This document shows positions 10,005 through 63,636 of a DNA stretch of 64,000 nt, in pieces (within the stretch, counting starts at the first letter, position 1; the number at the start of each line of letters is the position of its first letter). Origin of the DNA: Alphaproteobacteria bacterium (GTDB lineage Bacteria; Pseudomonadota; Alphaproteobacteria; CAAHEQ01; UBA3637); contig SUVA01000006.1 in the NCBI GenBank assembly GCA_015062245.1, positions 1,753-65,752 on the forward strand, in the 5' to 3' direction. The position numbers and the translations under genes are program-made. The notes under the pieces are model-generated. The model was not told the DNA's origin. It did no database searches and was given only the letters and a program-made list of their open reading frames with translations.

Positions 10005-10754
10005 ATGAAACAATCAGATATTAAAGTTGGAATTATCGGTTATGGTGTTATCGGTTCTACATTCAGTCAGTGGTTAAAAGAACATACCCAATGCCGTCAG
10101 GCAATATCTGATCCGCCAAAGGGAATAAATGAAGATTTAACGGGTTGTAATGTCTTTTTTGTTGGGATTCATATTCCGACCGAAGCCGATGGAACACAGG
10201 ATTTAACCCTTTTAAAACAGATCATTTCAAATTTACCACAAGGACCGGTCTTTATCAGGACAACCTTATTACCGGGAACAGCGGATAAATTGACGAATGA
10301 ATTGATGCGACCTGTGTATTTTATGCCTGAATTTTTAACAGAACGTACGGCCTATGCTGATTTTTGTTCTCAGGATGTGGTGATTACAGGCGAACATGAA
10401 TTGATGGATGCGATATTTGCAAACAAAAAACGCTTGTATATGTCCAATATCGAAGCTGAATTGACCAAATATGCCCATAATGTTTTTGGGGCTGTGGCTG
10501 TTACATATTTCAACGGTATTTATGATTTGTGTCAAAAGGCTGGCGCAGAATATGAAAAAGTACGTCAAGGACTTTTGCTCAGTGGTTATATTGCGCCAAC
10601 GCATTCTCATGTGCCGGGGCCCGATGGTAAATTTGGTTATGGTGGAAAATGTTTCCCAAAAGACGTAAATGCCTTTACCGAATACAGCAAAGGAAGCCCT
10701 TTATTCAATCTGTTGGAATCGGTTATCAATGCCAATAAAGTGTTCAGAAACTAA
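10005..10754 (+). CDS. Short UDP-glucose/GDP-mannose dehydrogenase family protein
   Basis: GYGVIG Rossmann motif, PEFL, AELTKY, GYGGKCFPKD; ends before the usual C-terminal UDP-binding domain. Confidence 0.8.
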   Translation: MKQSDIKVGIIGYGVIGSTFSQWLKEHTQCRQAISDPPKGINEDLTGCNVFFVGIHIPTEADGTQDLTLLKQIISNLPQGPVFIRTTLLPGTADKLTNELMRPVYFMPEFLTERTAYADFCSQDVVITGEHELMDAIFANKKRLYMSNIEAELTKYAHNVFGAVAVTYFNGIYDLCQKAGAEYEKVRQGLLLSGYIAPTHSHVPGPDGKFGYGGKCFPKDVNAFTEYSKGSPLFNLLESVINANKVFRN

Positions 10755-11944
10755 TCGTTTCTGAACATTGGCAATCCTTTTTTCATCAATGTTTCTTGTT
10801 GTTCCATAAAGGTGGCCAGGTTGATGTTACCGCCACGGATGGTCATACGCATTTGATCGGCCGCAGACGAATTGGGGTTAGCAAAGGCGGTTTTATAGTG
10901 CAGTTTTAATTTTTCAACACCGTCCAAACGTTGATAGATAACACCCAAAATACCACGGGCCAATAAATCGGCCACCAAACCGCTGTCCAATCCGGTGGAT
11001 GAAGCATATTTAATCATAGAGTTTAAAGCATCTTCCACACCGTTGGCGTGAATGGTTGAAAACACCAAGTGTCCTGATGTGGCCGCCACTAAACATTGGG
11101 CTGCCGTTTCAGGCGTACGGATTTCCCCCACCAAAATATAACGTGGTTTTGAACGCAAGGCAGAACGCAAACCCGCACCCCATTGATCGTTTTCAACGGT
11201 TGTTTGTTTGCATAATCCCAATCCGCCGTTTTTGGCGTGATAAAGACCGGATAAAGGCATTTCGGGCGGATCTTCAATTGTAAGTAAAAATCCACCTTCT
11301 GTTTCCAAATAACGTTTCATAATGGCGGACGCAGATGTTGTTTTACCTTGACCTGTTGGACCGGCAAATAAAAGCAAACCTGATGATTTGCCCAGCCCTG
11401 ATAAATGTTTTACAATCTCTGGCGCAAAGCCCAGTTGTTCAATTTCCGGTGCTTTGTTGGGCATTTTACGACAGTTAAACTGAACACCCTCATTGGCCAC
11501 AATTCTTTCCACACGGTAATAATCGCCACCGAATTTGACAGAATAACTGGAAGTGCCGGTATAACCTTGTTCCAACGCCCGTTTAAATTCAGGCAGATCC
11601 GGTGTTTCAATCGGAATCAAAGCAAAACGAGTTCTGGGATCACGCACATAGGCAATGTCTTCCGGCGTGTACCAAATATCGGAAAAGCCTGTGTCATGCA
11701 GGCTTTCGCCCTTAATAACGGTTGCATCAGCACTGATTTGATCGGCTTCATTTGAAAAGGTATGCTCTGCTTTTTTTTCGCCTGTTACAGAAGGGTTGGT
11801 TGACGCACCACCACGCAAAGCCGCCAAAGGATCTTCCGTTGGTGTTTGCATTTGTTGAACGGGCTGTCCGCTTGGTTGATTATTGTCAAGAGATTCGGGT
11901 TGGTTATGGGATAAAAAATTTGGTAAAATTGGTTTGTCAAACAT
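10751..11944 (-). CDS. PilT/DotB-like secretion or retraction ATPase
   Basis: Walker A GPTGQGKTT, TIEDPPE Asp box, ALRSKPRYILVGEIR Walker B, GHLVFSTIH His box. Confidence 0.85.
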   Translation of the reverse strand: MFDKPILPNFLSHNQPESLDNNQPSGQPVQQMQTPTEDPLAALRGGASTNPSVTGEKKAEHTFSNEADQISADATVIKGESLHDTGFSDIWYTPEDIAYVRDPRTRFALIPIETPDLPEFKRALEQGYTGTSSYSVKFGGDYYRVERIVANEGVQFNCRKMPNKAPEIEQLGFAPEIVKHLSGLGKSSGLLLFAGPTGQGKTTSASAIMKRYLETEGGFLLTIEDPPEMPLSGLYHAKNGGLGLCKQTTVENDQWGAGLRSALRSKPRYILVGEIRTPETAAQCLVAATSGHLVFSTIHANGVEDALNSMIKYASSTGLDSGLVADLLARGILGVIYQRLDGVEKLKLHYKTAFANPNSSAADQMRMTIRGGNINLATFMEQQETLMKKGLPMFRND

Positions 11945-11999: not shown

Positions 12000-12785
12000 T
12001 TATTTTGTTTTTCTTTTTAATGCCATTGCAACAAACGGGCAAAATTGTTTTTTCTTGTCAAAAACGTTTGTTTTTGATATTTTTCCCGTATCATCAATGG
12101 TGGCATATTCTATACTGCTTATCGGTAAGTTTTCTTTGCCTGTGTATTTTAAAGCTATACCATTGGTCAGGACGCTTTGTTGCATAAAACGATTATAATC
12201 CTGTTTGAAATCGGGATTGTTTTGACACAAATAATCGGTTAAAGTTTGGAAAAATACGGCATCGGCACATCCTTGACAGGGATTGCCCCCTTCTTTTCGT
12301 ATGAAATTTTGTTGCATTGTCGGGGCAAAGTGGCTGGCACCTTTGATTGTTAAACAGATATCATCATTTTCTTTTTTTAATTGAATGGATTGAATGCTGG
12401 TTAAAAGACTTTCATTTGACGGTAATTGAATGTTCAGATTTTGCATTTTTTTATTAATAAAATCTTGATGTTTTGCAAATAAATCGCATAACCCCGGTGC
12501 ACATTCCACATCTGCTTGCCACAACGGATAAGTAATTTTTTCTTTTTCTGTATCAATCCCCACAATGATGGCTTCTTTCAACATTTGTTGAAAATTTAAA
12601 AATTGAATATGGTTTTCGGCCAGATTTTCATTTGACCAAACATAAAATCCATTTGCCTGTCCACCAATACCTTGACCGATGGGTTTTGCACCTTCTTTAA
12701 AAAATGATTTAAAATCATCGGGATTTGTTCCGACATGGTAAAAACGGACGCTTTGTTTTTGTTCTAATGTTTTTTGAAGGGTCAT
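12000..12785 (-). CDS. Orphan protein, paralog of 48464..49243; possible ADP-ribosyltransferase fold
   Basis: Shares FYH, DFKSFF[KR]EGAK, GFYVWSN, KYTGK and CPF with 48464..49243; SD GGAGG upstream; fold is inference. Confidence 0.7.
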   Translation of the reverse strand: MTLQKTLEQKQSVRFYHVGTNPDDFKSFFKEGAKPIGQGIGGQANGFYVWSNENLAENHIQFLNFQQMLKEAIIVGIDTEKEKITYPLWQADVECAPGLCDLFAKHQDFINKKMQNLNIQLPSNESLLTSIQSIQLKKENDDICLTIKGASHFAPTMQQNFIRKEGGNPCQGCADAVFFQTLTDYLCQNNPDFKQDYNRFMQQSVLTNGIALKYTGKENLPISSIEYATIDDTGKISKTNVFDKKKQFCPFVAMALKRKTK

Positions 12786-17200: not shown

Positions 17201-17630
17201 TGGATTGCCCGTTTTAATACCGGCCGATTATATCAATGAATTGGATGTGCGGATGGATTTATATCATCGTATGGGTGAAATTCGCACATTGGAAGAAGTA
17301 AATACGATGCGTTCAGAGTTAAAGGACCGTTTTGGTATGTATCCTGTGGAAACGGAAAATCTGTTTTTGACATTGGAATTAAAACTTTTGGCCCGTCAAG
17401 CGCATATCGAACGATTGGATGCGGGTGAAAAGGGTGCAACAATTTCATTCTTTAACAACACTTTCCCGAATCCGGCCGGTTTAGTGGATTATATCAAATC
17501 TCAGGTTGGGACAATGAAAATCCGACCTGATCAAAAAGTGGTGGCCATTCGTTCATGGAAAAATACGGATACCCGATTAAAAGGTATCCGTGATATGATT
17601 CAAAAAATTGCCGAATTGGCCGTTCATTAA
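14259..17630 (+). CDS. mfd: Transcription-repair coupling factor
   Basis: GDVGFGKTEVA, DEEQHFGV, QLRGRVGR, TRCF C-terminus. Confidence 0.97.
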   Translation: MINQIYSGVPDGYEAFVLVKQLQKGHVLYVASDEKKAMRTYETLLRIFPKIPVLFYPAWDTVPYDRTSPSSDIVGNQLDTLIQLQRLKKNTVVITSVPAVSQLIPPTDVFSKSIKKLAVGDKVDFDELKSFLVRLGYQSTDVVMQAGDFAVRGEIVDIFTPGLSLPVRLDFFDDELESIRFFNPTTQRTTDILKEFEIKPVRLFELTEDNCHLFRSRYRELFDNPVQDMIYQAVSQMRYMDGMEHYLPLFYSQMVSLFDYLPNATVFVGTTFEESLKAREAQVNDYYQARSQFQSPNAPAYHPLPPDLFFISSDSMNQYLKKQNVIRLTPFQSEKSKNQGATPSRDFVDIRVQKDKDLFLEIADYVRSCPKRVVMTTLTEGAGDRLVALFKEKELALNFSDDFNQALKKAPSVMVAPFETGFQTEDLLVLTETDMFGQRLQSLPKRRKAQDFIADISSLSKGDLVVHTLHGIGRFVGLETIQVAGAAHDCLLLEYAENARLFVPVENTDVLSRYGSGEVALDRLGNPSFANRKAKLQKDLMQMADKLMKIAGKRALHQMPKILAPHGLYQEFCARFPYTETEDQLRTVSEIESDLSMGKPMDRLVCGDVGFGKTEVAMRAAFLAVMAGYQVAVIAPTTLLARQHTQNFIQRFDGFPIRIASLSRLVSARQSKQVKDELQKGSLDIVVGTHALLSKTLSFKNLGLVIVDEEQHFGVKHKERLKEMQTGVHVLTLTATPIPRTLQLSLSGVRDLSVIATPPVDRLAVKTYVMSFDPVVMKEAILRENFRGGQTFVVVPRISDMDDVYDDLKILLPDLKMVKAHGQMPPTQLEKIMSDFTQGDYDVLIATSIIESGLDLPRVNTMIVYRADMFGLAGLYQLRGRVGRGKQKAYAYLTTTGKLSENARKRLEVMQKLDSLGAGFMLASHDLDIRGAGNLLGSEQSGHIREIGVALYQKMLAEAVQSLKHDKTKSVDMDFSPQISVGLPVLIPADYINELDVRMDLYHRMGEIRTLEEVNTMRSELKDRFGMYPVETENLFLTLELKLLARQAHIERLDAGEKGATISFFNNTFPNPAGLVDYIKSQVGTMKIRPDQKVVAIRSWKNTDTRLKGIRDMIQKIAELAVH

Positions 17631-18022
17631 ATGGCATCATCCTTTGGTGGTGTATAGGTGTTTTCCGTTTCGTTCCAATTATTACCCCATTGGTTGATGA
17701 CGCTGTTTTTAACTTTTGGGCAATCATCAGTTGTTGAAAATTCAATCGTTACCACGCCGTTTGAATTAACGCTTAAAGAGCTAACACATTTATAATCATC
17801 CTTTTTTTTACCGATGGCTTTCCAAATAGCATCATTGTCATAAAATTTTATCATTGTTTTGCCGGTCATAGATGCGATGGATACCAATTCGGCTGTTTGA
17901 TTGGCTTTGTTCATACTAACCGCAGATTGATATCCCATAACACCGGTCATACCGATAATCCCAATTAAAGCCAAAACAGCCAGCATTTCAACCAATGACT
18001 TTCCTGTTTCATTTTTTTTCAT
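17627..18022 (-). CDS. Short type IV pilin-like protein
   Basis: Class III signal peptide ETG|KSLVEMLAVLALIGII with Glu at +5; one Cys pair; own promoter. Confidence 0.8.
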   Translation of the reverse strand: MKKNETGKSLVEMLAVLALIGIIGMTGVMGYQSAVSMNKANQTAELVSIASMTGKTMIKFYDNDAIWKAIGKKKDDYKCVSSLSVNSNGVVTIEFSTTDDCPKVKNSVINQWGNNWNETENTYTPPKDDAI

Positions 18023-26170: not shown

Positions 26171-26449
26171 TTATTTGGCAGCCTGTTCAACGACATAATC
26201 CCAAAATGGGTTGGCATACAAAATCAAAATGGTAATCACGAACGCATAAATAGCAGTAGATTCAATCATCGCCATTGACACAAACAAAGTGCGTGTGATA
26301 TTTGATGATTCATCCGGTTGTTGTGCCATAGAACGCAGGGCATTTGCAGCCACATTGGCCTCACCGATTGCCGGCCCGATACCACCGATAGCGATACACA
26401 AAGCCGCCGAAATAATTGACATAGCACCGATTAAAGTGATAGCATCCAT
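26171..26449 (-). CDS. atpE: N-ATPase c subunit
   Basis: Two TM helices with PAIGE and IESTAIY (Na+-type ligand pattern). Confidence 0.93.
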   Translation of the reverse strand: MDAITLIGAMSIISAALCIAIGGIGPAIGEANVAANALRSMAQQPDESSNITRTLFVSMAMIESTAIYAFVITILILYANPFWDYVVEQAAK

Positions 26450-30488: not shown

Positions 30489-31406
30489 ATGAAAAAAAGT
30501 CTTTTGTTTTCAACGTTTTTTTGCTTGACAACTGTTTTGGGCGTGCCAACGGCAGAGGCAGGCTATTGCGCTTGTGCTGGTCGTTGCGTGACAGGGGCTG
30601 TTTGTAATTGTTCAACGGGGGCTTGCACAATTCCGGCGCAACAATCCAGATATGCTTATGGTTATGTGGATACTTCGGCACCGGTTGTTTATTCGCAACC
30701 AGTTATTGCACCCAGTTATCAAACGCCGACACCGTACCGTTCCCATCATGAATATACAGGTGCTCGCCCTGTGCCGTACATCGCTGCCCGTGTGGGTGTG
30801 AATATGATGGAAGGGGATGCCGAATATCGTTCCTCAGTTGATGGGACATGGAAAAAGGATTTTGATGACAGTGTTTTTTCTGGTGCCTTGGCTTTTGGTG
30901 TAAAGATAAATTCTTGGCGTGCAGAAGTAGAAGGGGCTTTGTATTCAAAAGCAGAAAAAGAACTTGATTTTTCTACACCAACAGGTTATCACTTTGGTCA
31001 TGATTTGAAGGCTAGAATACAAGCAAAAACATTGTTGTTTAATTTGTTTTATGATATTCCCACAGGAACACAGCTAACACCATTTATCGGTGGCGGTGTT
31101 GGTTTTGCTCACTTAAAAGGTACTTTGGAAGGTAAAGATGAGACACCTACCAGTATTTTAGTTCCTTTTTCTGAAAGTCATAGCAAAGCTAATTTTGCTT
31201 GGCAAATTGGGGCAGGCCTTTCTTATGCTTTAAATCGTAATACAAATGTGGATTTTGGCTATCGTTATACAAATTATGGAAAGGTGAAATTGCAATCCTT
31301 TGAAGGAATTGATAGGGGTGGAACTGGTACATATGTAAAGGAAAAAACCGAAGTCAAAGATTTAACCTCTCATTCAATATCGGCAGGTTTAAGATTTAGT
31401 TTTTAG
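30489..31406 (+). CDS. Outer membrane beta-barrel (OmpA/opacity-like) with Cys-rich N-terminal module
   Basis: Signal peptide ending AEA, YDIPTGTQLTPFIGGGVG, NFAWQIGAG, VDFGYRY, C-terminal LRFSF. Confidence 0.85.
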   Translation: MKKSLLFSTFFCLTTVLGVPTAEAGYCACAGRCVTGAVCNCSTGACTIPAQQSRYAYGYVDTSAPVVYSQPVIAPSYQTPTPYRSHHEYTGARPVPYIAARVGVNMMEGDAEYRSSVDGTWKKDFDDSVFSGALAFGVKINSWRAEVEGALYSKAEKELDFSTPTGYHFGHDLKARIQAKTLLFNLFYDIPTGTQLTPFIGGGVGFAHLKGTLEGKDETPTSILVPFSESHSKANFAWQIGAGLSYALNRNTNVDFGYRYTNYGKVKLQSFEGIDRGGTGTYVKEKTEVKDLTSHSISAGLRFSF

Positions 31407-31414: not shown

Positions 31415-31876
31415 ATGGATAAAAAAGATAAAACCTCATTGATGATGTTGGCGGGTGGTGCTGCTGTTGCAGGTGCTACGGTTTTAGCTTCACAGTCATT
31501 AAGCGGACTGGAACTCACAAATGATCTTTTGGAAATTGTTGAGAATGTTTTGAATTTATTGAGAGGAACATCCATGATTGCTTCTGCGATCGGTCTTGCT
31601 CGGATAGGTTTGAAATATGGAACAAAAATGTGGAATTGGTTGAAAGAAAAAATAAGCTATCATTCAAACAATAAGAAAAAAGAATTGGCAAAGACGCATT
31701 CTAAATCTAACGATTCAAAAAGTTCATCAAAAGGACATGTAAAAGAAGGCGAAATGACAGGTATTATGAAAAAGGGTTTTAATCGTGGGGCGGATATAAA
31801 TTTGGCCCAACAATCAAGACCAGTGCAAAAAACGGTATCAAATGCAAAAGTTGTTCAACAACAATCTCAAAGATAA
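31415..31876 (+). CDS. Orphan membrane-associated protein
   Basis: Two hydrophobic segments, Ser/Lys-rich tail ending VVQQQSQR. Confidence 0.6.
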   Translation: MDKKDKTSLMMLAGGAAVAGATVLASQSLSGLELTNDLLEIVENVLNLLRGTSMIASAIGLARIGLKYGTKMWNWLKEKISYHSNNKKKELAKTHSKSNDSKSSSKGHVKEGEMTGIMKKGFNRGADINLAQQSRPVQKTVSNAKVVQQQSQR

Positions 31877-32159: not shown

Positions 32160-33314
32160 ATGTCAGTAAAAAACAAAACAAACAAAAACGATAAAAGAAG
32201 TCAAAAGGGGCGCAGTATGGTTGAAATGCTGGGGGTGCTTGCCATCGTGGGCGTTTTGTCCGTGGGCGGTGTGTACGGCTATGGTGTCGCCATGAAAAAA
32301 CACAAAGCCAATGAATTATTGCACCAGGCCTCAATGCTGGCCACTACCATATCGGCACAAATCCAAAGTAAAGGTGAATTGCCCCAAAGCATTGAAGATT
32401 TTGGCAATGGTAAATACGGGACATTTAATCCCCCCAGTGAAGCAAATGCTGAACAATTTACCATGCAAATCACAGGTATGGATTCTGCGGTTTGTACCCA
32501 AATGGAAAAGATGGCGAGCGGAATGGTGCGTGAAGCCAAATGTAATGGCACAACATTGACCTTAACCTATAACAACAATTTATCCAGCGACAAAGTCGCC
32601 GCCGATTATAATGGTGATGAAGACGGTTGTAAAGACAGTGGTCGTAAATACTGTTCAGGTTCAAATTCTTGCGTTGCTTTGGATAAGGAATGCGGATGTA
32701 GTGGCACAAATAACGGCTGTCAAAAATGCGATACAGAAACGGGTTCTTTGGTTGCCGATGATGAAAAAGAAGGTGAAAATTGCACCACATCTGATGGTAA
32801 AGCAGGAACATGTAATGATGGCGTGTGTGAGGAAAAAGTGGATTGTCCTAATGGCTTGGATGCGAATGAAGAGGGAAAGTGTATTTGTACAGACCACACA
32901 ACGAATCAATGTGGATTGGGATATTATTGCAAGTTTGTTCCGGATGATGATGCTTGTGGTGATAGCGACCGTGGAGATGGTGTTTGTACAGCCGTTGGCA
33001 GTGGTACTTCCATCAAAGACGGGGCTTATTTAAAGAGTTCTGATCCTATGGATTGGTGGAGTGCATACAGTTGGTGTAAAGGGAACGACATGGATTTGAT
33101 AACGGGGACAATAGACGGCATACCGTTGAACAGTGATTACTTTGATGAGGATAATTATATATTGTATAACTACTTTGGAGAGTATTTTAAATTTTGGACA
33201 GGTTATGAGGATGACCATTCCTGTTACACGTGGTACGCTTACGCTGAGCCTGACCATGAGTGGGTCGGCTCGGACGCCAGTCGCGACTGCGAGTTCTCCG
33301 CTTTGTGTCAGTAG
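32160..33314 (+). CDS. Large type IV pilin-like protein with Cys-rich stalk and putative C-type-lectin-fold tip
   Basis: SQKG|RSMVEMLGVLAIVGVL class III signal; many Cys; DWWSAYSWC...FWTG...SCYTWY...SALCQ tip (fold is inference). Confidence 0.85.
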   Translation: MSVKNKTNKNDKRSQKGRSMVEMLGVLAIVGVLSVGGVYGYGVAMKKHKANELLHQASMLATTISAQIQSKGELPQSIEDFGNGKYGTFNPPSEANAEQFTMQITGMDSAVCTQMEKMASGMVREAKCNGTTLTLTYNNNLSSDKVAADYNGDEDGCKDSGRKYCSGSNSCVALDKECGCSGTNNGCQKCDTETGSLVADDEKEGENCTTSDGKAGTCNDGVCEEKVDCPNGLDANEEGKCICTDHTTNQCGLGYYCKFVPDDDACGDSDRGDGVCTAVGSGTSIKDGAYLKSSDPMDWWSAYSWCKGNDMDLITGTIDGIPLNSDYFDEDNYILYNYFGEYFKFWTGYEDDHSCYTWYAYAEPDHEWVGSDASRDCEFSALCQ

Positions 33315-33330
33315 TGCGTGTTCGGCTTTT
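33219..33330 (+). other. Candidate DGR variable region plus 3' flank
   Basis: Abrupt GC rise (hand count 64/110 versus 31/100 just upstream); 14 of the last 31 sense codons end in C and none in A; no template or RT found in window. Confidence 0.55.
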
Positions 33331-33338
33331 TAAGATAA

Positions 33339-33378
33339 ACAACATCCTGTCGGTTTAATCGGCGGGATGTTTTCTTTT
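33339..33378 (+). terminator. Hairpin with T tail after the pilin-like gene
   Basis: aacatcctgtcg-gtttaat-cggcgggatgtt then ttcttttt. Confidence 0.75.
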
Positions 33379-34074
33379 TCATCCGATCATTTGTTGGATT
33401 TGGGTAAGGAGTTGTTTGAAAAATTCACGACAGGCAGGGCTGATATATTGGTGCCACAGGCTTAAACCCGCCCAGCCTTTCAGGGCAAAACACCACAAAT
33501 AACCGATGACAAAAAGATTTGCCCCCGGTATAAATAATGTGGTGAATAACCATCCGGCTTTTTTAAAGTCTGTCTGTTCGCTGTGGATTTGGGTGAAGTT
33601 GGCCGAAATGTGAAAGCCGACCCAAAAACCGTAAGTGATGATATACCACGGTTCAAATTGTCCGTTTTGCGTGCCAAAAAATAACCCAACTAACATCCAA
33701 ATAAAAGGAAAAGTCGGTAAAAAATACGGCGCCATGGTAATCAACCAATTGCCTTTGCCCAAATACGAAAACGATCCGCCTTTGTCTTGCTCTATCTTCA
33801 TGCCCACGGGTTTATGTCCCGTCAATACCGCCGCCAACATGTGGGTGGATTCATGGGCAAAGATAGTGAATGAAGCGCCGGCCAATCCCGGAATTAAATT
33901 CCACAAAGCAACTGTGCCGATAATGGGCAACAAAAAATAAACGCCCAAATGCATATTAAATGTTTCACTTATCAAACGAATCAATGCCTGTAACAGCGGA
34001 AAAGTAAAAAAAGCACAACTTAAGGCCACCGGATATTTTATAATCTTTAAGAACGAATTGATAAAACCTTGCAT
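33379..34074 (-). CDS. M50B-like membrane metallopeptidase
   Basis: Multiple TM helices and HESTH (HExxH). Confidence 0.7.
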   Translation of the reverse strand: MQGFINSFLKIIKYPVALSCAFFTFPLLQALIRLISETFNMHLGVYFLLPIIGTVALWNLIPGLAGASFTIFAHESTHMLAAVLTGHKPVGMKIEQDKGGSFSYLGKGNWLITMAPYFLPTFPFIWMLVGLFFGTQNGQFEPWYIITYGFWVGFHISANFTQIHSEQTDFKKAGWLFTTLFIPGANLFVIGYLWCFALKGWAGLSLWHQYISPACREFFKQLLTQIQQMIG

Positions 34075-53966: not shown

Positions 53967-55208
53967 TTACTGTTGTTTTTTATAAATTTTAAAAATCTCT
54001 TTTTGTTTTGGATAGAAAATAAATATATCCAATAAAATAATACCTAAAATGGCACTAATCAACAATAAAGCCCAAAAGAAAGAGAGGTTGATTTTTAAAA
54101 ACAGAGAAATCAAAAGTGTTAAAGTTAGCAAAATGAAAACGCCGATAACGATTTCGCCCATTCTATAAAGCCAGCTGATAAAGGCATTCTCAGAGTGCTT
54201 TTTGAAACGCTTTAATTGATACAACAAAGATCTGGCGTGTATTTCATAGCCCGATAGTGAAAAATAACAAAGCATAATAATAAAAGAGATTAAAAACAAA
54301 GAAAATGGTGAAAGGTTGTTTAATGCATTATCTTCGTTTTGGGGATTTACATTTTTTGCACTTAAATATATTTGGGCAAAAGCCGGTATAATATGGTTGT
54401 TTTGGAAAAAGGTATTTCCTTTATCATCTGTTTGAATGTTAAAGTTGGAAGGTATTTCCAATTTGTTTTGACCAAATAAAAACTTTATATTTTCTAATAG
54501 ATTTTGGTTTGCCAAAATAATACCTGACATATTATCCACCACCAAGGACCAATCCGATGCTGTCAATGGCAATAATATCTCGGGAGAGTTTTTTGGGTTA
54601 TATAAAACATATTCTAAAATTATTTTATGTATTCCTTTTGGGGTTAAAGGAAGTTTTAATGAGGTTAAATCACTTGTTTTTTCCAAAAATGGTTTAATGT
54701 TTTGGCCGTTGATTTTTGCACTGATTAAAAAGAAATGCTTGGAATCAATTGGCCAAGAACGTACAATAGGTGTATCTTGTGTTGTTAAAAACTGTAAATG
54801 TTCCTGAACATATATATTTTGTCCGTCCATCAATTGAATAATAAAGTTCCAATCGCTGGTATGTGGGATATATTTGACTTCTTTGCTTTTCCCGAAAAAA
54901 CTATTGACCGGTATGCCGATTTCTTTTTGTTGGTTGTCAAAGGATGGGGTGGCGTTTAGTTGAGGGGCATCCGGCCTTTGCGGAATGTCCATCGACCCAA
55001 ATAAACGGATTTTTGCTTTATCCATCCACGTTTTGGGTTGGGGTTTGTCCGAAATGCCCTGAATATAGACGAAAGAACCACCGGAATAGACTTTGGCTTC
55101 ATTATCATACACCAAATTTGGGTTGTTTTCATTAAAAGTATTGTCTGCTATTTCTTGGGCTAAAATCGGAAAGCAAAAAAAACATAAAAGGAAAAATATT
55201 TTCTTCAT
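53967..55208 (-). CDS. Hypothetical membrane protein (DUF2207-like layout)
   Basis: Signal peptide, beta-rich soluble domain, three C-terminal TM helices. Confidence 0.5.
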   Translation of the reverse strand: MKKIFFLLCFFCFPILAQEIADNTFNENNPNLVYDNEAKVYSGGSFVYIQGISDKPQPKTWMDKAKIRLFGSMDIPQRPDAPQLNATPSFDNQQKEIGIPVNSFFGKSKEVKYIPHTSDWNFIIQLMDGQNIYVQEHLQFLTTQDTPIVRSWPIDSKHFFLISAKINGQNIKPFLEKTSDLTSLKLPLTPKGIHKIILEYVLYNPKNSPEILLPLTASDWSLVVDNMSGIILANQNLLENIKFLFGQNKLEIPSNFNIQTDDKGNTFFQNNHIIPAFAQIYLSAKNVNPQNEDNALNNLSPFSLFLISFIIMLCYFSLSGYEIHARSLLYQLKRFKKHSENAFISWLYRMGEIVIGVFILLTLTLLISLFLKINLSFFWALLLISAILGIILLDIFIFYPKQKEIFKIYKKQQ

Positions 55209-55849
55209 TTTTCAGCCTTTTCATCAGATTGACATACATCATACAACGGACATTCATTACATTTTGGTTTTCGGGCGGTGCATATATAACGACCCAATAA
55301 AACCGTCGCCAAAGCAAAAGTTGTTTTATATTTTTCGGGAACAATTTTTTCCAATTTTGTTTGTACTTCTTGTGGTGTTTTTCCTGTGCATATTTTCAAT
55401 CTGTGTGCCAAACGAAAAACGTGCGTATCCACACCGATATAGGGTTTATGATAGGCCACGTTTAAAAAGACGCTGGCTGTTTTTTTGCCAATACCCGGTA
55501 AAGTTATCAGTGTTTCAAAATCGGTCGGTATTTGTCCATTATAGTTATGGACAATTTCGTTGGCCAAATTGACAATGGCTTTTGTTTTATTGTTGAAATA
55601 ATTGACGGTTTTCACCAAGGGGGTAATGCCTTCAATGCCTAATTTTAATGCTTTTTCTGGGGTGTTGGCAACTTTAAAAAGGGCAGGGGTTGTTTTATTG
55701 ACATTTTTATCCGTTGATTGGGCGGACAAAATAATCGCCATCATCAATTCCCAAGGATTTGACCAATCCAGTTCGCATTTGGGATTCGGATAAAGCCGAT
55801 GTAATGCCTCAATAAATTTTAGGCGATCTTTTTCATTCATCAGACTCAT
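55205..55849 (-). CDS. nth: Endonuclease III
   Basis: ILSAQSTD, HhH LPGIGKKTA, VDTHV, CTARKPKCNECPLYDVC FeS motif. Confidence 0.96.
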   Translation of the reverse strand: MSLMNEKDRLKFIEALHRLYPNPKCELDWSNPWELMMAIILSAQSTDKNVNKTTPALFKVANTPEKALKLGIEGITPLVKTVNYFNNKTKAIVNLANEIVHNYNGQIPTDFETLITLPGIGKKTASVFLNVAYHKPYIGVDTHVFRLAHRLKICTGKTPQEVQTKLEKIVPEKYKTTFALATVLLGRYICTARKPKCNECPLYDVCQSDEKAEK

Positions 55850-55869
55850 TTTTCCCCCTTTTATTTTTA

Positions 55870-56106
55870 TTATTCGTCCAAAGGCTCAGAAGATATTGGC
55901 TCACCTTGTTTGTCCAAAAGCAATTTTTCAACCTTCATTTGGGCATTTTTTAATTTTTCTTCGCAAATTTTTTTTAATTGGTTTCCTTCTTCGTAAACTT
56001 TGACGGCATCTTCTAATTTTATTTGCCCTGATTCCAATTGCGAAACGATGTTTTCCAATTTTTCCAAAGCTTGTTCAAAAGAAAGTTCATTTATTTTTTC
56101 TGACAT
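55870..56106 (-). CDS. xseB: Exodeoxyribonuclease VII small subunit
   Basis: LSFEQALEKLENIVSQLESG...KLKNAQMKV. Confidence 0.93.
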   Translation of the reverse strand: MSEKINELSFEQALEKLENIVSQLESGQIKLEDAVKVYEEGNQLKKICEEKLKNAQMKVEKLLLDKQGEPISSEPLDE

Positions 56107-56501
56107 TTTTTCTTTCCTTTATTGCAACATTTTTTGGTTTTCTTTTCTTCATGGCAACAACAATGATGTTCTTCATCATCATGATGATGACAACAACAAT
56201 GATGACGTGTGTGTTGACAGGTTGTCGGATGTGGTAAAGTTTTTAACTGTAATTCACGTTCGGCCATTAAAGTCATTAAATCCCACATCATTTCACGGGT
56301 TTCTGCCAGCATTTGAACAGCAGTGATTTCAGTGGCTGTTTCTTCTAGTTCAGAAATTAATTTCTCTATTTTTTCCTGCAATTTAAAAGCTTTTGGGGCT
56401 AAAATTTGCATTTCTTCCCATAAAAGTTTGGGGTCCTGAGCCGTTTTGACCATAACTTTTAAACTATGCATATGTTTTGCTAAATCTGTTTCTTTTGTCA
56501 T
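56091..56501 (-). CDS. Hypothetical protein with His/Cys-rich C-terminal tail
   Basis: CQHTRHHCCCHHHDDEEHHCCCHEE...CC...C; SD GGAG upstream. Confidence 0.7.
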   Translation of the reverse strand: MTKETDLAKHMHSLKVMVKTAQDPKLLWEEMQILAPKAFKLQEKIEKLISELEETATEITAVQMLAETREMMWDLMTLMAERELQLKTLPHPTTCQHTRHHCCCHHHDDEEHHCCCHEEKKTKKCCNKGKKKCQKK

Positions 56502-56536
56502 TTTAATTCTCCGTTTTTTATCAGTATAATCTAATT

Positions 56537-57229
56537 TTATTTATTTTTCAATAAATAATTTCTTCCATCAGGTAAAGAGGCGTTTAAAACATTTTTTTGT
56601 AAAAAATAACCTGTTAAATTTAAAGCGTTTTTTAAATCTATTATGTTGGGGGATTCGCCTGATTTTTGCCATAAAAATTTGGGTAAAGAAAGCAATTTAT
56701 CACGATAAGGCAGGCCTTTTTCATAGCTGACAGAGCGTCCTGTTTTGGGGGACACGAAAGCCAAGTTGTTTTTATCGCCACCGCCGGCGCAATCCGAAAA
56801 ATCCAAACCAAAACCCAATTCTTGTAATAAATTTAATTCAAAAAGAATATAATGTTTTACATAATCTTCATTGTTTAAGTTATTGATTAAAATAAAAACT
56901 TCGTCATATAAGTTAGAATATATTTGCCGTTCCGGTAATGTTTTGTTCAATAATTCGCAAATGCATCGGATACAACATAATCTGGGCCAATCATCCATAT
57001 AAAAACCTGAGGTTGACTTTAAATTTTCCAAATAAAAGGTTCCCAATTGTTCGCTTAGGCGGGCTTGCCATCTGGCGTTGACTATATCGGCCGGTTGTGG
57101 GGAAGATTTACCTTTATATACACCCAAATAGCGTCCGCTTTCTTTTGTAAAAAGTGAAACAACAAAGGATTTTTCGCCCAGCTTTTTAGACCCCAGAACA
57201 ATTGCATTTGCGTACTTTTGTTCAGGCAT
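56537..57229 (-). CDS. recO: DNA repair protein RecO
   Basis: LLQELGFGLDFSDC, VSPKTGRSVS; downstream of era. Confidence 0.92.
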   Translation of the reverse strand: MPEQKYANAIVLGSKKLGEKSFVVSLFTKESGRYLGVYKGKSSPQPADIVNARWQARLSEQLGTFYLENLKSTSGFYMDDWPRLCCIRCICELLNKTLPERQIYSNLYDEVFILINNLNNEDYVKHYILFELNLLQELGFGLDFSDCAGGGDKNNLAFVSPKTGRSVSYEKGLPYRDKLLSLPKFLWQKSGESPNIIDLKNALNLTGYFLQKNVLNASLPDGRNYLLKNK

Positions 57230-58103
57230 TAAAATTTAACCCCCATTGTTGGTATTGATTGACATCATCCACCCAATCTTGGCGAACCTTTACAAATAAG
57301 AACAGGTTGACTTTTTTGCCCAATTGGCGTGTCATTTCCATACGGGCTGCTTCGCCGATTTTTTTAATCATTTTACCGCCGGCCCCCAAAATAATGGATT
57401 TATGGGCGGTACGGGAAACAATGATATTTTGTTCAATTCGGATGGATTGTTTTTGTTCCTTAAATAAAACAGGTTCTACCGTCAATTGATAAGGCAATTC
57501 TTCCCTTAAATACAAAAACAGCTTTTCTCGGGTGATTTCGGCACAAAAAAGTTTATCGGGCAAGTCGGTTAATTCATCATCAGAAAACATCCATGGGCCG
57601 TTAGGGGCATTTTCCAATAAATAATCTTTTAATTCTTTAACGCCTTCGCCTGTTTGGGCGGACACACAAAAAACAGTTTTGATATTATCTATGGCATTTA
57701 AATCTGTCAATTTTTTAACTAAGTCATCTTTTTGAACTAAATCAATTTTGTTTAAAACCAAAATGACAGGGGCTTTAATTTTCTTTAAAATGGAAATATC
57801 TGTTTCGGTCAACCCCTTTTTGGCGTCTATAACCATCATTTGTAAATCAGAATCGGCCGATTCTGTCCAAGCGCAATCCAACATTGCCCGATCCAAACGT
57901 CTTTGTGGCTTAAAAATCCCCGGCGTATCCACTAAAACCAACTGGGTTTCTTTTTCGCTTAAAATACCACGGACACGGGAACGGGTTGTTTGAACTTTCG
58001 GTGAAACGATGCTGACTTTTTGCCCGATTAAACGGTTGATAAGGGTTGATTTTCCCACATTTGTTTTTCCAATAATCGCCACAAAAGCAAATTTAGTTGT
58101 CAT
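57222..58103 (-). CDS. era: GTPase Era
   Basis: GKTNVGKST, QTTR, DTPG, NKID, KH domain. Confidence 0.96.
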   Translation of the reverse strand: MTTKFAFVAIIGKTNVGKSTLINRLIGQKVSIVSPKVQTTRSRVRGILSEKETQLVLVDTPGIFKPQRRLDRAMLDCAWTESADSDLQMMVIDAKKGLTETDISILKKIKAPVILVLNKIDLVQKDDLVKKLTDLNAIDNIKTVFCVSAQTGEGVKELKDYLLENAPNGPWMFSDDELTDLPDKLFCAEITREKLFLYLREELPYQLTVEPVLFKEQKQSIRIEQNIIVSRTAHKSIILGAGGKMIKKIGEAARMEMTRQLGKKVNLFLFVKVRQDWVDDVNQYQQWGLNFNA

Positions 58104-58728
58104 GTTCTATTTCCTGTAAAAGCAAATAAGCAGCCTCTTGTTCGGCTTTTTTTATGGATCCGCCTTTGGCCATTTTAATATAGGGACCGGCCTCTAATTT
58201 AACAATAAATTCAGGGGCGTGGGCCTGACCGTGTTGTTCAACCAAAGTATATGTTGGCAGAATACCGAAATTTTTTTGACTATATTCTTGTAATTGAGAT
58301 TTGGAATCCTGAGGGGCGTGTTCATAGGAAAGCATTAAAGGTTCCCATATGGGAATAATAAATTCTTTGGCTTTTTCCAAACCTTGATCCAAATAAAGTG
58401 CACCGATAACGGATTCGCATACATCCGATAAAATTGATTTGTTATGACGAATACAGTGGGCCGATTTTTCACCAAAGCTTTCCAAGTTCCACGTTTTTGT
58501 TATTTTTGCCAGTGTTTTACCGCATGTCAATGCCACAAAACGTTTGGCCAATAATCCCTCGGCTTCGTTTGGATAAGCGTTGTATAACATTTCAGCCACA
58601 ACTATGCCCAAAACACGGTCGCCCAAAAATTCCAATCTTTCATAACCGGATTTTTGTCCGTTTAATGCCAATTTCGTGGCTTGGTAATATAAATCTTTAT
58701 TTTTAAAAAGAGAAATAATTTTATCCAT
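58093..58728 (-). CDS. rnc: Ribonuclease III
   Basis: ERLEFLGDRVLG plus dsRBD. Confidence 0.96.
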   Translation of the reverse strand: MDKIISLFKNKDLYYQATKLALNGQKSGYERLEFLGDRVLGIVVAEMLYNAYPNEAEGLLAKRFVALTCGKTLAKITKTWNLESFGEKSAHCIRHNKSILSDVCESVIGALYLDQGLEKAKEFIIPIWEPLMLSYEHAPQDSKSQLQEYSQKNFGILPTYTLVEQHGQAHAPEFIVKLEAGPYIKMAKGGSIKKAEQEAAYLLLQEIEHDN

Positions 58729-58738
58729 TTTTTATTCC

Positions 58739-59557
58739 TTATTTGATATCAGTAAAAAAGCGTTCTAAACGTAAAAATTCTTTCCAACGCCAAAATTGAA
58801 AGAACCATCCGGTTCCGTCAGTAGAATAGAAAATCAAACGGGATTTTCCTTCTAAATTTTTTGCGGGAACAGGTCCGAATTCACGGCTGTCCAATGAATT
58901 ATCCCGATTGTCCCCCATCATAAAAAATGAATCGGGCGGAATTTCAATTTTGGGGGTGTCATCATATCGGTTTTCATCGGTCAATTCATAGATGTCGTGT
59001 ACAACACCGTTGGGTAATGTTTCTGTATAGCGGGAATAAAGTTGTTCACCTAATTCCGTATTCCACAATTCTTGTCCTTTAAATTCACGAGGGATAAGTT
59101 GATCGTTAATGTATAAACGTCCGGCACGCATTTGAATTGTATCACCGGGTATTCCAATGACTCGCTTTACGTAATCTGTATCATTTTCGGGTGGTTTTTT
59201 GAACACGGCAACATCCCCACGTTTGGGTTCATTGTAAAAAATCCGCCCTCTGGGAATAATAGGCAGAGAAAAAGGAAAAGAATGGCGTGAATATCCGTAA
59301 TCAAACTTTGTTACGAACAAATAATCTCCCACCAATAAAGTCGGCACCATTGAACTGGATGGAATATTATAGGGTTCAAAAATTAAAGAACGTATGGCTA
59401 AGGCCGCTATAACAGTCCAAAAAATTCCTTTCCATCCGTTTTTGCGTTCTTTTTCTTCACGCAATAAACGTTTATTCAATGCATCTATTTTTTCCTGACG
59501 AATGCGGGCTTCTTCCGGTGATAAAGCATTTTGTTGTGTGTTTATATTGTCGTTCAT
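58739..59557 (-). CDS. lepB: Signal peptidase I
   Basis: IPSSSMVPTL, YVKRVIG, GDNRDNSLDSR. Confidence 0.96.
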   Translation of the reverse strand: MNDNINTQQNALSPEEARIRQEKIDALNKRLLREEKERKNGWKGIFWTVIAALAIRSLIFEPYNIPSSSMVPTLLVGDYLFVTKFDYGYSRHSFPFSLPIIPRGRIFYNEPKRGDVAVFKKPPENDTDYVKRVIGIPGDTIQMRAGRLYINDQLIPREFKGQELWNTELGEQLYSRYTETLPNGVVHDIYELTDENRYDDTPKIEIPPDSFFMMGDNRDNSLDSREFGPVPAKNLEGKSRLIFYSTDGTGWFFQFWRWKEFLRLERFFTDIK

Positions 59558-59702
59558 TTGATTTTCCTTTCTAATTTAAGGTAATTTAGCATAAAATAAA
59601 AAGGTTGTCCAGCAAAATAAAAAGATTTTTATGTAATAATATTTGACATTTGGTTTGAAAATATGTATTCTATACACTATAACTAACTGAAAGGAAATAA
59701 AA

Positions 59703-61181: not shown

Positions 61182-61242
61182 TGGTAATAAGGAAAAATGA
61201 ATAAGGTTTGAAAGTTTAAAAATATCTTTACAAGGAGGGAAA

Positions 61243-61500
61243 ATGAAAGAAGTTTTTAAAAACCTGATGAATTTGGATAAGCCGATTTTGACGAAGAAAT
61301 TGGCGCCTGCTTTAACGCCTTTTGCCCGATTGATTTACTTGATTGGTTTGATTATTTTAAGCTTGGCGTGTTTGGGGGCTTTATACCTGCTGTTTAAATT
61401 AGAGGTGTCCGAATTTTTGCTCAGTTTAATCGGTATTTGCGCCGAATTTGCATTACTTCGTATGTTTTGTGAGTATTTGGTATCCAGCGGTCGCAAATAA
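61243..61500 (+). CDS. Small two-TM hypothetical protein
   Basis: GGAGG SD, two hydrophobic helices, LRMFCE. Confidence 0.6.
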   Translation: MKEVFKNLMNLDKPILTKKLAPALTPFARLIYLIGLIILSLACLGALYLLFKLEVSEFLLSLIGICAEFALLRMFCEYLVSSGRK

Positions 61501-61505
61501 GAAAC

Positions 61506-61582
<77 letters not shown>

Positions 61583-61591
61583 GCTTTTTTT

Positions 61592-62035
61592 ATGGAGTAT
61601 CATTTGGATTTTCAGGCAACGGCTGTTTCTTATAAAAATCAGGCTGTTTTAATCACAGGTCCTTCTGGTGTTGGAAAAACAACGCTGGCTTTGCATTTGA
61701 TTGAAAAGGGTGGAAAAATTATTGGTGATGATATTGTTGAAATATTTATAAAAAACAATCAATTATTTTGCAAATCTAAATCAAAACTTAAAGGAGTTGT
61801 TGAGGTTCGTGGTTTGGGTTTAGTCAGTGGTTTAAAGGTTGCAAAACCCACCAAAGTTGCCTGTCTTATTCGTTTGCACAACCAAAAAACAGAACGGATG
61901 CCTGAAATGAAAACGATTGTTTTATTGGATAAAAAAATACCTGTTTTTGATTTTTATGCTTGCGAAACAAATTTAATTCAAGTATTATATGCCTTGAAAG
62001 TGTTAAACGGAGATTTAAATCTTTTAAAGGAGTAA
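61592..62035 (+). CDS. hprK: Short alphaproteobacterial HPr kinase
   Basis: ITGPSGVGKT, GDD, VEVRGLG; precedes EIIA and HPr. Confidence 0.85.
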   Translation: MEYHLDFQATAVSYKNQAVLITGPSGVGKTTLALHLIEKGGKIIGDDIVEIFIKNNQLFCKSKSKLKGVVEVRGLGLVSGLKVAKPTKVACLIRLHNQKTERMPEMKTIVLLDKKIPVFDFYACETNLIQVLYALKVLNGDLNLLKE

Positions 62036-62039
62036 AGTT

Positions 62040-63630: not shown

Positions 63631-63636
63631 GCGATT

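What the first reader, a model, noticed from the sequence alone, without database searches (positions are those of the whole stretch)
33219..33378. Pilin tip looks like a DGR variable region with no retroelement nearby
Seen: the last 31 sense codons (SCYTWYAYAEPDHEWVGSDASRDCEFSALCQ) break from the gene's composition. By hand count GC is 64/110 versus 31/100 just upstream, 14 codons end in C, none in A, and every Tyr, Asp and Glu is TAC, GAC or GAG. A short GC-rich flank and a hairpin follow. Established: DGRs mutate template adenines, turning AAC codons into NNC in the C-terminal variable region of C-type-lectin-fold targets, and can act on remote targets. Inference: this is a remote DGR target, meaning a hypervariable type IV pilin tip.
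Basis: partly seen in the sequence, partly recalled or inferred. Interest (0 to 1): 0.82.

Follow-up and report, generated by a model that had tools for sequence, protein, structure and literature searches.

The report
DGR-type variable tip on pilin
The last ~30 codons of a pilin-like surface protein carry the sequence signature of a diversity-generating retroelement variable region on a C-type-lectin fold, but no retroelement was found and this copy looks fixed, not actively hypervariable.

Summary
The tail of ORF 32160-33314 is the most GC-rich 100 nt of the window. It has no A-ending codon, and all nine Tyr/Asp/Glu codons are TAC/GAC/GAG against a 12% background.

The ORF is a modular type IV pilin-like protein: a pilin module, a Cys-rich spacer and a C-terminal domain that models confidently as a C-type-lectin fold.

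Relatives from uncultured Alphaproteobacteria share a DNA scaffold in which variation sits in NNC codons. Invariant columns are depleted of A. In the closest allele pair (flanking domain 92% identical), all 18 tail differences fall at codon positions 1-2 and none at position 3. A short motif just after the stop codon is conserved at non-syntenic loci. Family members without this tail show no such bias. Together this is the footprint of adenine-directed DGR mutagenesis.

No reverse transcriptase or template repeat was found in the window, in about 230 kb of related loci, or in pattern scans of public collections. The full genome was not available. All seven near-identical copies carry the same tail, and the window's tail has drifted at non-adenine sites. 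Whole C-terminal cassettes are also swapped between strains and loci by recombination.

Verdict: a DGR-made variable region, remote or orphan, currently static.

The parts
32160..33314 (+). Gene for a 384-aa modular pilin-like protein (pilin module, Cys-rich spacer, C-type-lectin-like domain).
   Evidence: ORF. There are 520 homologues, and those that carry a source name are labelled 'type II secretion system protein', 'pseudopilin PulG' or hypothetical protein, from uncultured Alphaproteobacteria. The full-length AF2 model has pLDDT 85.
32160..32594 (+). Pilin module. It has a class III signal-peptide-like N-terminus (KG|RSMVEMLGVLAIVGVLS, Gly17 at 32208, Glu22 at 32223), a long alpha-1 helix, a small beta-sheet head and invariant Cys112/Cys128.
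   Evidence: Weak N_methyl/TIGR02532 hits below the curated cut-offs. The region is nearly invariant in the family. The model shows a helix at 36-71 and strands at 93-138. The top Foldseek hits for the full-length model are type IV pilins (PilW 7t31, 4d40), with probability 0.96-0.97 but E about 0.1.
32595..32969 (+). Cys-rich spacer made of small beta-hairpin, EGF-like modules; variable and mosaic between relatives.
   Evidence: Alignments A1/A6. A few relatives give EGF/Dickkopf-type Pfam hits. Model.
32970..33311 (+). C-terminal C-type-lectin-like domain.
   Evidence: AF2 of residues 261-384 gives pLDDT 90.5. The leading Foldseek PDB and BFVD hits are overwhelmingly C-type lectin-like domains, including Bdellovibrio Bd2740 CTD, Legionella Lcl CTD and a phage DUF1566 protein. 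A profile search of PDB hits langerin at E about 1e-3. Pfam has no model for it.
33219..33311 (+). DGR-type variable region: TCC TGT nnC nCG TGG nnC ... CGC nnC ... GCT TTG TGT CAG.
   Evidence: Composition and codon statistics. Shared DNA scaffold and NNC variation in relatives. C3 excess in 9 of 9 VR-type tails against none in 2 controls. The L003/L021 allele pair differs only at codon positions 1-2, and L009/L022 at seven of its eight differing sites.
33315..33331 (+). Motif just after the stop codon, TGCGTGTTCGGCTTTTT. It is conserved, with variants such as GGTTCTCGGCTTTTTAA, behind VR-type pilin genes at non-syntenic loci. It marks the 3' edge of the unit shared between loci and is a candidate IMH-like or recombination anchor.
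   Evidence: Alignment of 3' flanks from 11 loci. In the L003/L021 and L009/L022 pairs homology ends right after it. Identity between the window and L022 flanks resumes at 33322.
33341..33381 (+). Hairpin (14 bp, 3-nt loop) plus T-run: an intrinsic terminator between the convergent pilin and M50B-peptidase genes.
10751..11944 (-). T2SSE-family ATPase, a possible part of the type IV filament machinery that would assemble the pilin.
   Evidence: PF00437, E = 1e-30. Its link to this pilin is inferred only.

Best explanation
The 3' end of this gene is a variable region of the kind written by a diversity-generating retroelement. It sits on the ligand-binding C-terminal strands of a C-type-lectin-like domain, which is carried at the end of a type IV pilin-like subunit.

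Inferred mechanism: a DGR elsewhere in the genome, or in an ancestor, transcribed an AAC-rich template repeat. Its reverse transcriptase misincorporated opposite adenines. The cDNA then replaced the stretch from about 33219 up to the conserved motif just after the stop codon. That turned AAC-type codons into NNC codons, which makes the tail GC-rich and free of A-ending codons in an AT-rich genome.

In this lineage the copy is a remote or orphan target that is currently fixed. It is identical in all sampled near-identical genomes and has since drifted at non-adenine sites.

A second, shown layer of variation is homologous recombination. It swaps whole pilin bodies between strains and C-terminal cassettes between loci, using the near-identical N-terminal pilin module and the motif after the stop codon as edges.

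Shown: the composition, the fold, the family-wide substitution pattern, the cassette exchange and the stasis. Inferred: the retroelement itself and the pilus-tip adhesin role.
For: Composition:
- The tail is the GC maximum of the window, has no A-ending codon, and 9/9 Tyr/Asp/Glu codons are the rare C/G-ending ones.

Fold:
- The AF2 model has pLDDT 90.5. The leading PDB and BFVD structural neighbours are overwhelmingly C-type lectin-like domains, and a PDB profile search also hits CTLDs.

Family scaffold:
- Six VR DNAs of the same subfamily share TCC TGY nnC GCG TGG nnC GTT nnC GCT nnC TCT ... GAG nnC (A/G)TC nnC nnC nnC nnT CGC ... GCT TTG TGT CAG.
- Leaving out the window's copy, only 1 of 31 invariant columns is A, against a 31% background (P about 1e-4). 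Variable columns number 12/20 and 12/20 at codon positions 1 and 2, but 5/20 at position 3.
- At 19 variable residue positions, 94% of residues belong to the 15 amino acids reachable from AAC. K/E/Q/M/W make up 5.6% against a 19% background (P about 3e-12).

Internal control:
- Nine VR-type tails have 14-21 of 28 codons ending in C, against about 21% in the rest of the gene (P 2e-3 to 1e-8). Two family members without this tail show no bias.

Close allele pairs:
- L003/L021: there are 25 ordinary substitutions upstream, 14 of them at position 3, then 18 substitutions in the tail, all at positions 1-2 (Fisher 6e-5).
- L009/L022: four variable codons differ (GAC/AGC, TAC/CAC, GAA/GGT, AGC/GAC), plus one synonymous Leu change (TTG/CTG).
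- In both pairs identity resumes through the stop codon and the motif behind it, then ends because the loci differ.

Motif after the stop codon:
- It is conserved at about four non-syntenic loci.

Stasis:
-.

Cassette exchange:
- Flanks are 93-96% identical while the pilin bodies between them cannot be aligned.
- Near-identical lectin cassettes occur at different loci.
Against: - No template repeat and no DGR-type reverse transcriptase was seen in the 64-kb window.
- None was seen in the roughly 230 kb of related loci fetched, including +/-10 kb around several paralogues.
- None was seen in pattern scans of viral contigs and metagenome contigs, or in phage genomes.
- The VR subfamilies differ in length, so a single template could not serve them all.
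- The window's own tail is the least typical. It has 14/28 C-ending codons, four nnG codons at sites where its relatives have nnC (three of them window-private C->G changes), 8 private changes at otherwise invariant non-A sites and one extra codon.
- There is no variation among seven copies from several assemblies.
- The hairpin is sufficiently explained as a terminator.
Confidence: 0.7

Rival explanations
1. One reading: this copy is an active remote DGR target. A DGR elsewhere in this genome is rewriting the pilin tip now, so the tip is hypervariable within populations.
For: All the DGR-type hallmarks listed above apply. Remote targets are known, and large surveys state that they miss them (PMC8144416). 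Only 64 kb of the genome could be read, so an RT elsewhere is not excluded. Assemblies report only the dominant haplotype, so minority variants would be invisible.
Against: Seven near-identical copies from separate JGI, ENA and NCBI assemblies share an identical tail, although the four full-length copies differ at three other residues. In more than 25 pairs with a 100% identical lectin domain, the tail is identical or differs at one residue, while the N-terminal parts differ by 10-30%. The window's tail shows 8 private non-adenine changes relative to its subfamily scaffold; fresh homing from a shared template would erase these.
Confidence: 0.2
2. No retroelement was ever involved. The tail is an ordinary recombined patch, and the diversity comes from gene conversion or cassette exchange among pilin paralogues, in the style of Neisseria pilE/pilS. 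The conserved N-terminus and the motif after the stop codon act as recombination anchors, and the composition was inherited from a donor.
For: Cassette exchange is directly visible. The window, L003 and L022 have 93-94% identical flanks but pilin bodies that cannot be aligned. L009 and L018 show the same at 95.8% flank identity. Near-identical lectin cassettes sit at different loci, and homology ends exactly at the motif after the stop codon. N-terminal parts are mosaic.
Against: Recombination only moves sequence. It does not explain why, inside otherwise 92-95% identical cassettes, differences fall only or almost only at codon positions 1-2. It does not explain why invariant columns lack A, why variable codons end in C in a 38% GC genome, or why only the last ~30 codons are GC-rich while the rest of the lectin domain has normal composition. 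No truncated or silent cassettes were seen; all paralogues fetched are full-length genes.
Confidence: 0.08
3. The signature reflects selection alone. Binding loops rich in Tyr/Asp/Gly/Ser/Asn evolve under diversifying selection, with a local codon preference.
For: The residues at variable sites (Y, D, G, S, N) are typical of binding sites.
Against: Selection on amino acids does not dictate TAC over TAT or GAC over GAT. The same gene uses TAT/GAT/GAA in 51 of 71 cases outside the tail. Third positions being the least variable is the reverse of ordinary coding divergence.
Confidence: 0.02

Closest known systems
DGR variable proteins with a C-terminal C-type-lectin-fold VR (Bordetella phage Mtd, Treponema TvpA, Legionella LdtA; DUF1566/Lcl-CTD-type and FGE-type CLec targets). 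The named examples are recalled from my own knowledge.
   Same: The VR covers the last ~30 codons. It shows NNC variation on an A-poor scaffold and ends in a conserved segment that runs past the stop codon. The fold is CLec, and the structural neighbours include the Legionella Lcl C-terminal domain and a phage DUF1566 protein.
   Different: No cognate TR, RT or Avd was found. The domain matches no Pfam CLec/DUF1566/FGE model and has few sequence relatives: 13 representative clusters at E<=1e-3 in a search of 1.84 billion cluster representatives. The carrier is a type IV pilin-like subunit. There are many dispersed paralogues with VRs of different lengths.
DGR-diversified type V pilus tip adhesins of Bacteroides (bioRxiv 10.1101/2024.11.15.621889)
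   Same: The concept matches: a CLec-fold variable head on a pilus subunit in gut-type bacteria, and some elements are inactive in vitro.
   Different: Those are type V, lipoprotein-type pilins, a different pilus system. The variable proteins studied there are described as encoded by their DGRs. Here the scaffold is a type IV filament subunit and no DGR is nearby.
[quoted passage not shown]
   Same: It shows that GspG-type pilin N-termini have been seen on DGR targets.
   Different: It is a single passing mention and the details are not held. It cannot be said whether it is this family.
Modular type IV pilins with a grafted C-terminal lectin or adhesin module (Streptococcus sanguinis PilB/PilC; recalled from my own knowledge)
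   Same: The architecture matches: a pilin module followed by an extra binding module, expected to be displayed on the filament.
   Different: Those modules are not hypervariable and have other folds.
Neisseria pilE/pilS antigenic variation with the conserved 3' Sma/Cla repeat (recalled from my own knowledge)
   Same: A conserved 5' pilin part and a conserved short 3' element bracket a variable C-terminal part. Cassettes move between loci.
   Different: All copies here are full-length genes. The within-cassette substitution pattern is adenine-type, not mosaic conversion tracts.

Membership tests
DGR target / variable region | The VR lies at the C-terminus of the target protein in a fold that tolerates massive variation (usually C-type lectin). 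| tested here: met
   AF2 pLDDT 90.5. The leading Foldseek hits in PDB and BFVD are overwhelmingly CTLDs (probability 0.99, TM 0.45-0.56, E about 1e-2). A PDB profile search hits langerin at 1e-3.
DGR target / variable region | A template repeat (TR) in the same genome that matches the VR except where the TR has adenine. | tested here: inconclusive
   None was found in the window (adenine-tolerant scan), in about 230 kb of related loci, or in scans of viral and metagenome contigs. The rest of the genome could not be read, and the metagenome collection did not even return the window's own VR.
DGR target / variable region | A DGR-clade reverse transcriptase (with or without Avd) in the genome. 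| tested here: inconclusive
   The window has no RT motif or domain, nor do the gene tables of the loci fetched with the look-up of encoding contigs. The full genome is not available.
DGR target / variable region | An adenine-specific substitution pattern (AAC->NNC; non-A positions invariant). | tested here: met
   Tested by proxy, VR against VR, because no TR is at hand. Only 1 of 31 invariant columns is A. Variation concentrates at codon positions 1-2. In L003/L021, 18 of 18 tail differences are at positions 1-2; in L009/L022, 7 of 8, and the one at position 3 is in GAA/GGT, where one allele has A. Of the residues at variable sites, 94% are AAC-accessible.
DGR target / variable region | A conserved 3' element at the VR end (IMH) and a nearby hairpin. 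| tested here: inconclusive
   A motif after the stop codon is conserved at non-syntenic loci and marks the homology edge. The hairpin varies between loci and looks like an intrinsic terminator. Function was not tested.
DGR target / variable region | Ongoing diversification: VR haplotypes differ among otherwise identical genomes. | tested here: not met
   The tail is identical in 7 of 7 members of the window's 90% cluster. In pairs with an identical lectin domain, the tail is identical or differs at one residue. This rests on consensus assemblies only; read-level data were not available.
Type IV pilin / pseudopilin (type IV filament subunit) | A class III signal peptide: Gly at -1, Glu at +5, then a hydrophobic alpha-1 helix. 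| tested here: met
   The sequence is KG|RSMVEMLGVLAIVGVLSVGG, with Arg instead of Phe/Met at +1. N_methyl and TIGR02532 hits fall below the curated cut-offs (E 0.011 and 0.075). The motif is nearly invariant in the family.
Type IV pilin / pseudopilin (type IV filament subunit) | The pilin fold: a long N-terminal helix packed on a beta-sheet. | tested here: inconclusive
   The model shows a helix at 36-71 and 4 strands at 93-138. The top Foldseek hits are pilins (7t31, 4d40, 9iuf) with probability up to 0.97 but E about 0.1.
Type IV pilin / pseudopilin (type IV filament subunit) | Assembly machinery (prepilin peptidase, ATPase, platform) in the genome; location of the protein at the pilus tip. 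| tested here: inconclusive
   A T2SSE ATPase lies at 10751-11944 and a second short pilin at 17627-18022. No peptidase was seen in the window. 'Tip' is an inference.
Pilin antigenic variation by silent cassettes (Neisseria pilE/pilS type) | Promoterless partial donor cassettes and mosaic conversion tracts. | tested here: not met
   All paralogues fetched are complete genes with signal peptides. Differences within cassettes are point-like at codon positions 1-2. Whole-cassette exchange between loci does occur.

The most novel reading that the evidence does not exclude
Uncultured gut-type Alphaproteobacteria keep a dispersed family of type IV pilin-like adhesins: at least four chromosomal loci, and hundreds of alleles across the lineage. 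Their C-type-lectin heads would be written in trans by one or a few distant DGRs with several templates, and the diversified heads then shuffled between loci and strains by recombination at a conserved element after the stop codon. This would be a two-tier system (retro-mutagenesis plus cassette exchange) for varying a pilus adhesin, in which the motif after the stop codon serves both as the DGR homing signal and as the recombination anchor.
Probability: 0.25. Interest if true: 0.8.

Novelty: new variant of a known kind. Interest (0 to 1): 0.6.

Why it matters
DGR surveys find targets by their proximity to the reverse transcriptase, and they say explicitly that they miss remote targets (PMC8144416). 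This family shows that a DGR-type variable region can be recognised from the target alone, using the codon-position pattern, A-depleted scaffold, CLec fold and conserved 3' edge.

It also suggests that type IV filament subunits, not only type V pilins and phage fibres, can carry such regions.

If the retroelement is found, this would be a multi-locus trans-acting DGR system coupled to cassette exchange. If it is absent, these would be orphan variable regions that persist as fixed allelic repertoires, which bears on how long DGR footprints survive after the element is lost. Either way, it points to a large adhesin repertoire in a poorly known group of host-associated Alphaproteobacteria.

Tried and rejected
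1. An adenine-tolerant ungapped scan of the window and all fetched loci for a template found only self-hits.

2. IUPAC 'VR-or-A' patterns were run on IMG/VR for the window, L009 and L006 VRs, plus a strict AAC template pattern; all gave no hits. A merged L003/L021 pattern matched only poly-A and simple repeats. This is a design flaw, because every position allowed A.

3. Metagenome contigs: the strict template pattern gave 0 hits. The relaxed VR/TR pattern found one further VR (L014) and two chance hits in 70% GC contigs. The collection evidently lacks the relevant samples.

5. A synthetic Asn-rich 'template peptide' query to the protein index found no candidates because the query was too short.

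6. tblastn of the lectin domain against phage genomes found nothing.

7. Pfam and NCBIfam have no model for the C-terminal domain.

8. The hairpin was rejected as a DGR-specific cruciform. It is a standard terminator, and its sequence differs between loci.

9. Horizontal acquisition from a GC-rich donor was rejected, because only the last ~100 nt are GC-rich while the rest of the same domain is 28-47% GC.

10. I ran no further search on a generic DGR RT query, because its top hits could not be tied to this lineage.
Full report
**1. What is there**

The finding lies at the 3' end of ORF 32160-33314 (+), which encodes 384 aa. The window is AT-rich core chromosome (38% GC). It carries BamA, the lpx genes, ATP synthase, a large helicase-type ORF, a Rho-type ORF, RmuC, ArgRS and PolA, with no mobile-element genes.

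The protein begins with a prepilin-like signal, KG|RSMVEMLGVLAIVGVLS. Hits to N_methyl and TIGR02532 are weak and below the curated cut-offs.

A homologue search gave 520 hits. All named ones come from uncultured Alphaproteobacteria MAGs and are labelled 'type II secretion system protein', 'pseudopilin PulG' or hypothetical protein.

The first ~145 residues are nearly invariant in the family. The middle is Cys-rich and mosaic. The C-terminus differs between family members.

A full-length AF2 model (pLDDT 85) shows a long helix plus a four-stranded sheet, then small disulfide-rich hairpin modules, then a compact C-terminal domain. Its best structural neighbours are type IV pilins, though weakly.

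**2.

- The tail contains the GC maximum of the whole window: 0.62 per 100 nt, a value reached nowhere else in the window.
- None of the 31 codons ends in A (P about 2e-5) and 14 end in C (P about 1e-4).
- All nine Tyr/Asp/Glu codons are TAC/GAC/GAG, against 12% in the window's genes and 28% in the rest of this gene (P about 6e-9; Fisher 4e-5).
- A GC-rich 12-mer and a hairpin follow the stop codon. The hairpin is a textbook intrinsic terminator shared with the convergent M50B-peptidase gene.

**3. The fold test**

Residues 261-384 were modelled with 58 aligned sequences and gave pLDDT 90.5.

The leading PDB neighbours are overwhelmingly C-type lectin-like domains. They include CLEC12A, Ly49, LOX-1, langerin, the Bdellovibrio Bd2740 fibre tip and the Legionella Lcl C-terminal domain. 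Probabilities reach 0.99-1.0, TM-scores are 0.45-0.56 and E is about 1e-2.

The BFVD neighbours are viral C-type lectins and a phage DUF1566 protein. A sequence profile search of PDB also hits langerin at 1e-3.

Pfam has no model for the domain. Single-sequence phmmer against 1.84 billion cluster representatives finds only 13 clusters.

The tail forms the last three or four strands of the lectin domain.

**4. Family comparison gives the DGR footprint without a template**

Many relatives end in W-x-x-D...SC-x-A-[FW]-x-V...V....R.....YALC[EQKR].

DNA was obtained for six members of the window's own subfamily: the window, L001, L011, L012, L013 and L014. They share a scaffold, TCC TGY nnC GCG TGG nnC GTT nnC GCT nnC TCT nnC nnN GAG nnC (A/G)TC nnC nnC nnC nnT CGC nnC ... 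GCT TTG TGT CAG.

Leaving out the window's copy:
- only 1 of 31 invariant columns is an A, against 31% A upstream (P about 1e-4);
- variable columns number 12/20, 12/20 and 5/20 at codon positions 1, 2 and 3, the reverse of normal coding divergence.

At 19 variable residue positions, 94% of residues are among the 15 reachable from AAC.

In nine VR-type genes from four chromosomal contexts, 14-21 of the 28 codons before 'ALC' end in C, against about 21% in the rest of the gene. Two family members with other C-termini (L019, L004) show no bias. This serves as an internal control.

The strongest evidence comes from two close allele pairs.
- L003 against L021: the lectin domain upstream of the tail is 92% identical by protein. 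At the DNA level it shows 25 ordinary substitutions, 14 of them at position 3. The tail then has 18 substitutions, all at positions 1-2 (Fisher 6e-5).
- L009 against L022: four variable codons differ (GAC/AGC, TAC/CAC, GAA/GGT, AGC/GAC), plus one synonymous Leu change (TTG/CTG).
- In both pairs identity resumes through the stop codon and a short motif, (G)GTTCTCGGCTTTTTAA or TGCGTGTTCGGCTTTTT. It then stops, because the two genes sit at different loci.

That motif is conserved behind VR-type genes at about four non-syntenic loci and is absent behind a non-VR paralogue.

Adenine-directed rewriting of AAC-type codons, bounded 3' by a conserved element, is what a DGR does. I know of no other process that gives this pattern.

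**5. What argues against an active remote target here**

No RT or template was found:
- The window has no RT motif, no RT domain and no template copy.
- The +/-10 kb around paralogues on long contigs has none.
- Nor does any fetched locus.
- Pattern scans of IMG/VR and of the metagenome collection found no template.
- Phage genomes hold no relative of the domain.
- These searches are incomplete.

More telling is the stasis:
- The seven members of the window protein's 90% cluster come from NCBI, JGI and ENA assemblies. They have identical tails, while the four full-length copies differ at D11Y, S93R and Y333H.
- In a second cluster the N-terminal two thirds are mosaic (81-89% identity), yet the last 125 residues are identical except for one Leu/Ile.
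- Over all pairs, a 100% identical lectin domain always comes with an identical tail, or one that differs at a single residue. Only at 85-92% domain identity does the tail fall to 44-86% identity.

The window's own tail is also the least canonical. It has 14/28 C-ending codons, four nnG codons, an extra codon and 8 private changes at otherwise invariant non-adenine sites. Its nearest available lectin domain is only about 80% identical in DNA. These features may therefore reflect ordinary divergence since the last rewriting event, or a diverged template.

**6. A second, directly visible mechanism**

At the window's locus (pilin, M50B peptidase, RmuC, TrmA, ArgRS), strains whose flanks are 93-94% identical carry pilin bodies that cannot be aligned. 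These are the window, L003 and L022. Identity stops in the middle of the gene and resumes within or just after the last codons.

The same is seen at the RND-efflux locus, where L009 and L018 have flanks 95.8% identical.

Conversely, near-identical lectin cassettes occur at different loci (L009 with L022, and L003 with L021). The window's subfamily also occurs at the Sod/OMP/L21 locus in L001 and L012.

So whole cassettes move by homologous recombination between the conserved pilin module and the 3' motif. Many assemblies break just upstream of these genes, consistent with a repeated N-terminal module.

**7. Interpretation**

The most economical reading has four parts:
- The tail is a DGR-made variable region on the binding face of a lectin head carried by a type IV pilin-like subunit.
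- The retroelement acts, or acted, in trans and only episodically.
- This particular allele is fixed in the sampled population.
- The population's diversity at this locus is maintained largely by exchange of pre-diversified cassettes.

The different VR lengths mean that several templates or several historical DGRs are needed.

The 'pilus tip adhesin' role is inferred from the architecture and from a T2SSE ATPase and a second short pilin in the window.

**8. Relation to the literature**

DGR-diversified type V pilus tips are described in Bacteroides (10.1101/2024.11.15.621889). [quoted passage not shown] The largest survey states that it cannot detect remote targets (PMC8144416).

I found no description of a dispersed type IV pilin-like family with DGR-type lectin heads.

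I rate it a new variant of a known kind. Interest is moderate to high, limited by the missing retroelement and by the evidence that this copy is static.

Noticed in passing
window 17627-18022 (-): A second, short (131 aa) prepilin-like ORF (GKSLVEMLAVLALIGIIG...) with no lectin tail and no Pfam hit.
   Followed up: partly
window 10751-11944 (-): A T2SSE-family secretion/pilus ATPase (PF00437, 1e-30) about 20 kb from the pilin gene. The adjacent 261-aa ORF 12000-12785 has no Pfam hit.
   Followed up: partly
window 30489-31406 (+), GC peaks at 30537-30642 and 30723-30823: An Opacity/OMP beta-barrel protein next to the pilin has a Cys/Pro-rich N-terminal part that holds two of the window's three other peaks of at least 58% GC per 100 nt. 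OMP_b-brl genes also flank the pilin at the L001/L019 locus. A further peak lies at 26310-26410.
   Followed up: no
beyond window 64000 (by synteny with L006 10001-11182): Window 54358-63983 is collinear with L006, where a VR-type pilin (P0067) follows the MlaD/DUF2155 genes. An orthologous pilin is therefore expected about 0.3 kb past the window's end.
   Followed up: no
L007, L009, L018, L020, L022 (gene starts 33-191 nt from a contig end): Metagenome contigs often end just upstream of a pilin paralogue. This suggests that assemblies break in the near-identical N-terminal pilin module.
   Followed up: no
window 31875 against L003; upstream genes differ: Synteny breaks immediately upstream of the pilin. 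The window has NAD kinase, an OMP and a 153-aa ORF, whereas L003 has ART-PolyVal-like and MORN proteins. The pilin sits at the edge of a variable region.
   Followed up: partly
proteins P0052, P0143, P0144, P0146; P0013: Some relatives carry two to four copies of the lectin domain in proteins of 560-1330 aa. P0013 carries long Cys-rich repeat insertions.
   Followed up: no
window 31415-31876 (+): A 153-aa ORF directly upstream of the pilin. It is conserved in L017, has no Pfam hit and is Ser/Lys-rich with a hydrophobic N-terminus.
   Followed up: no
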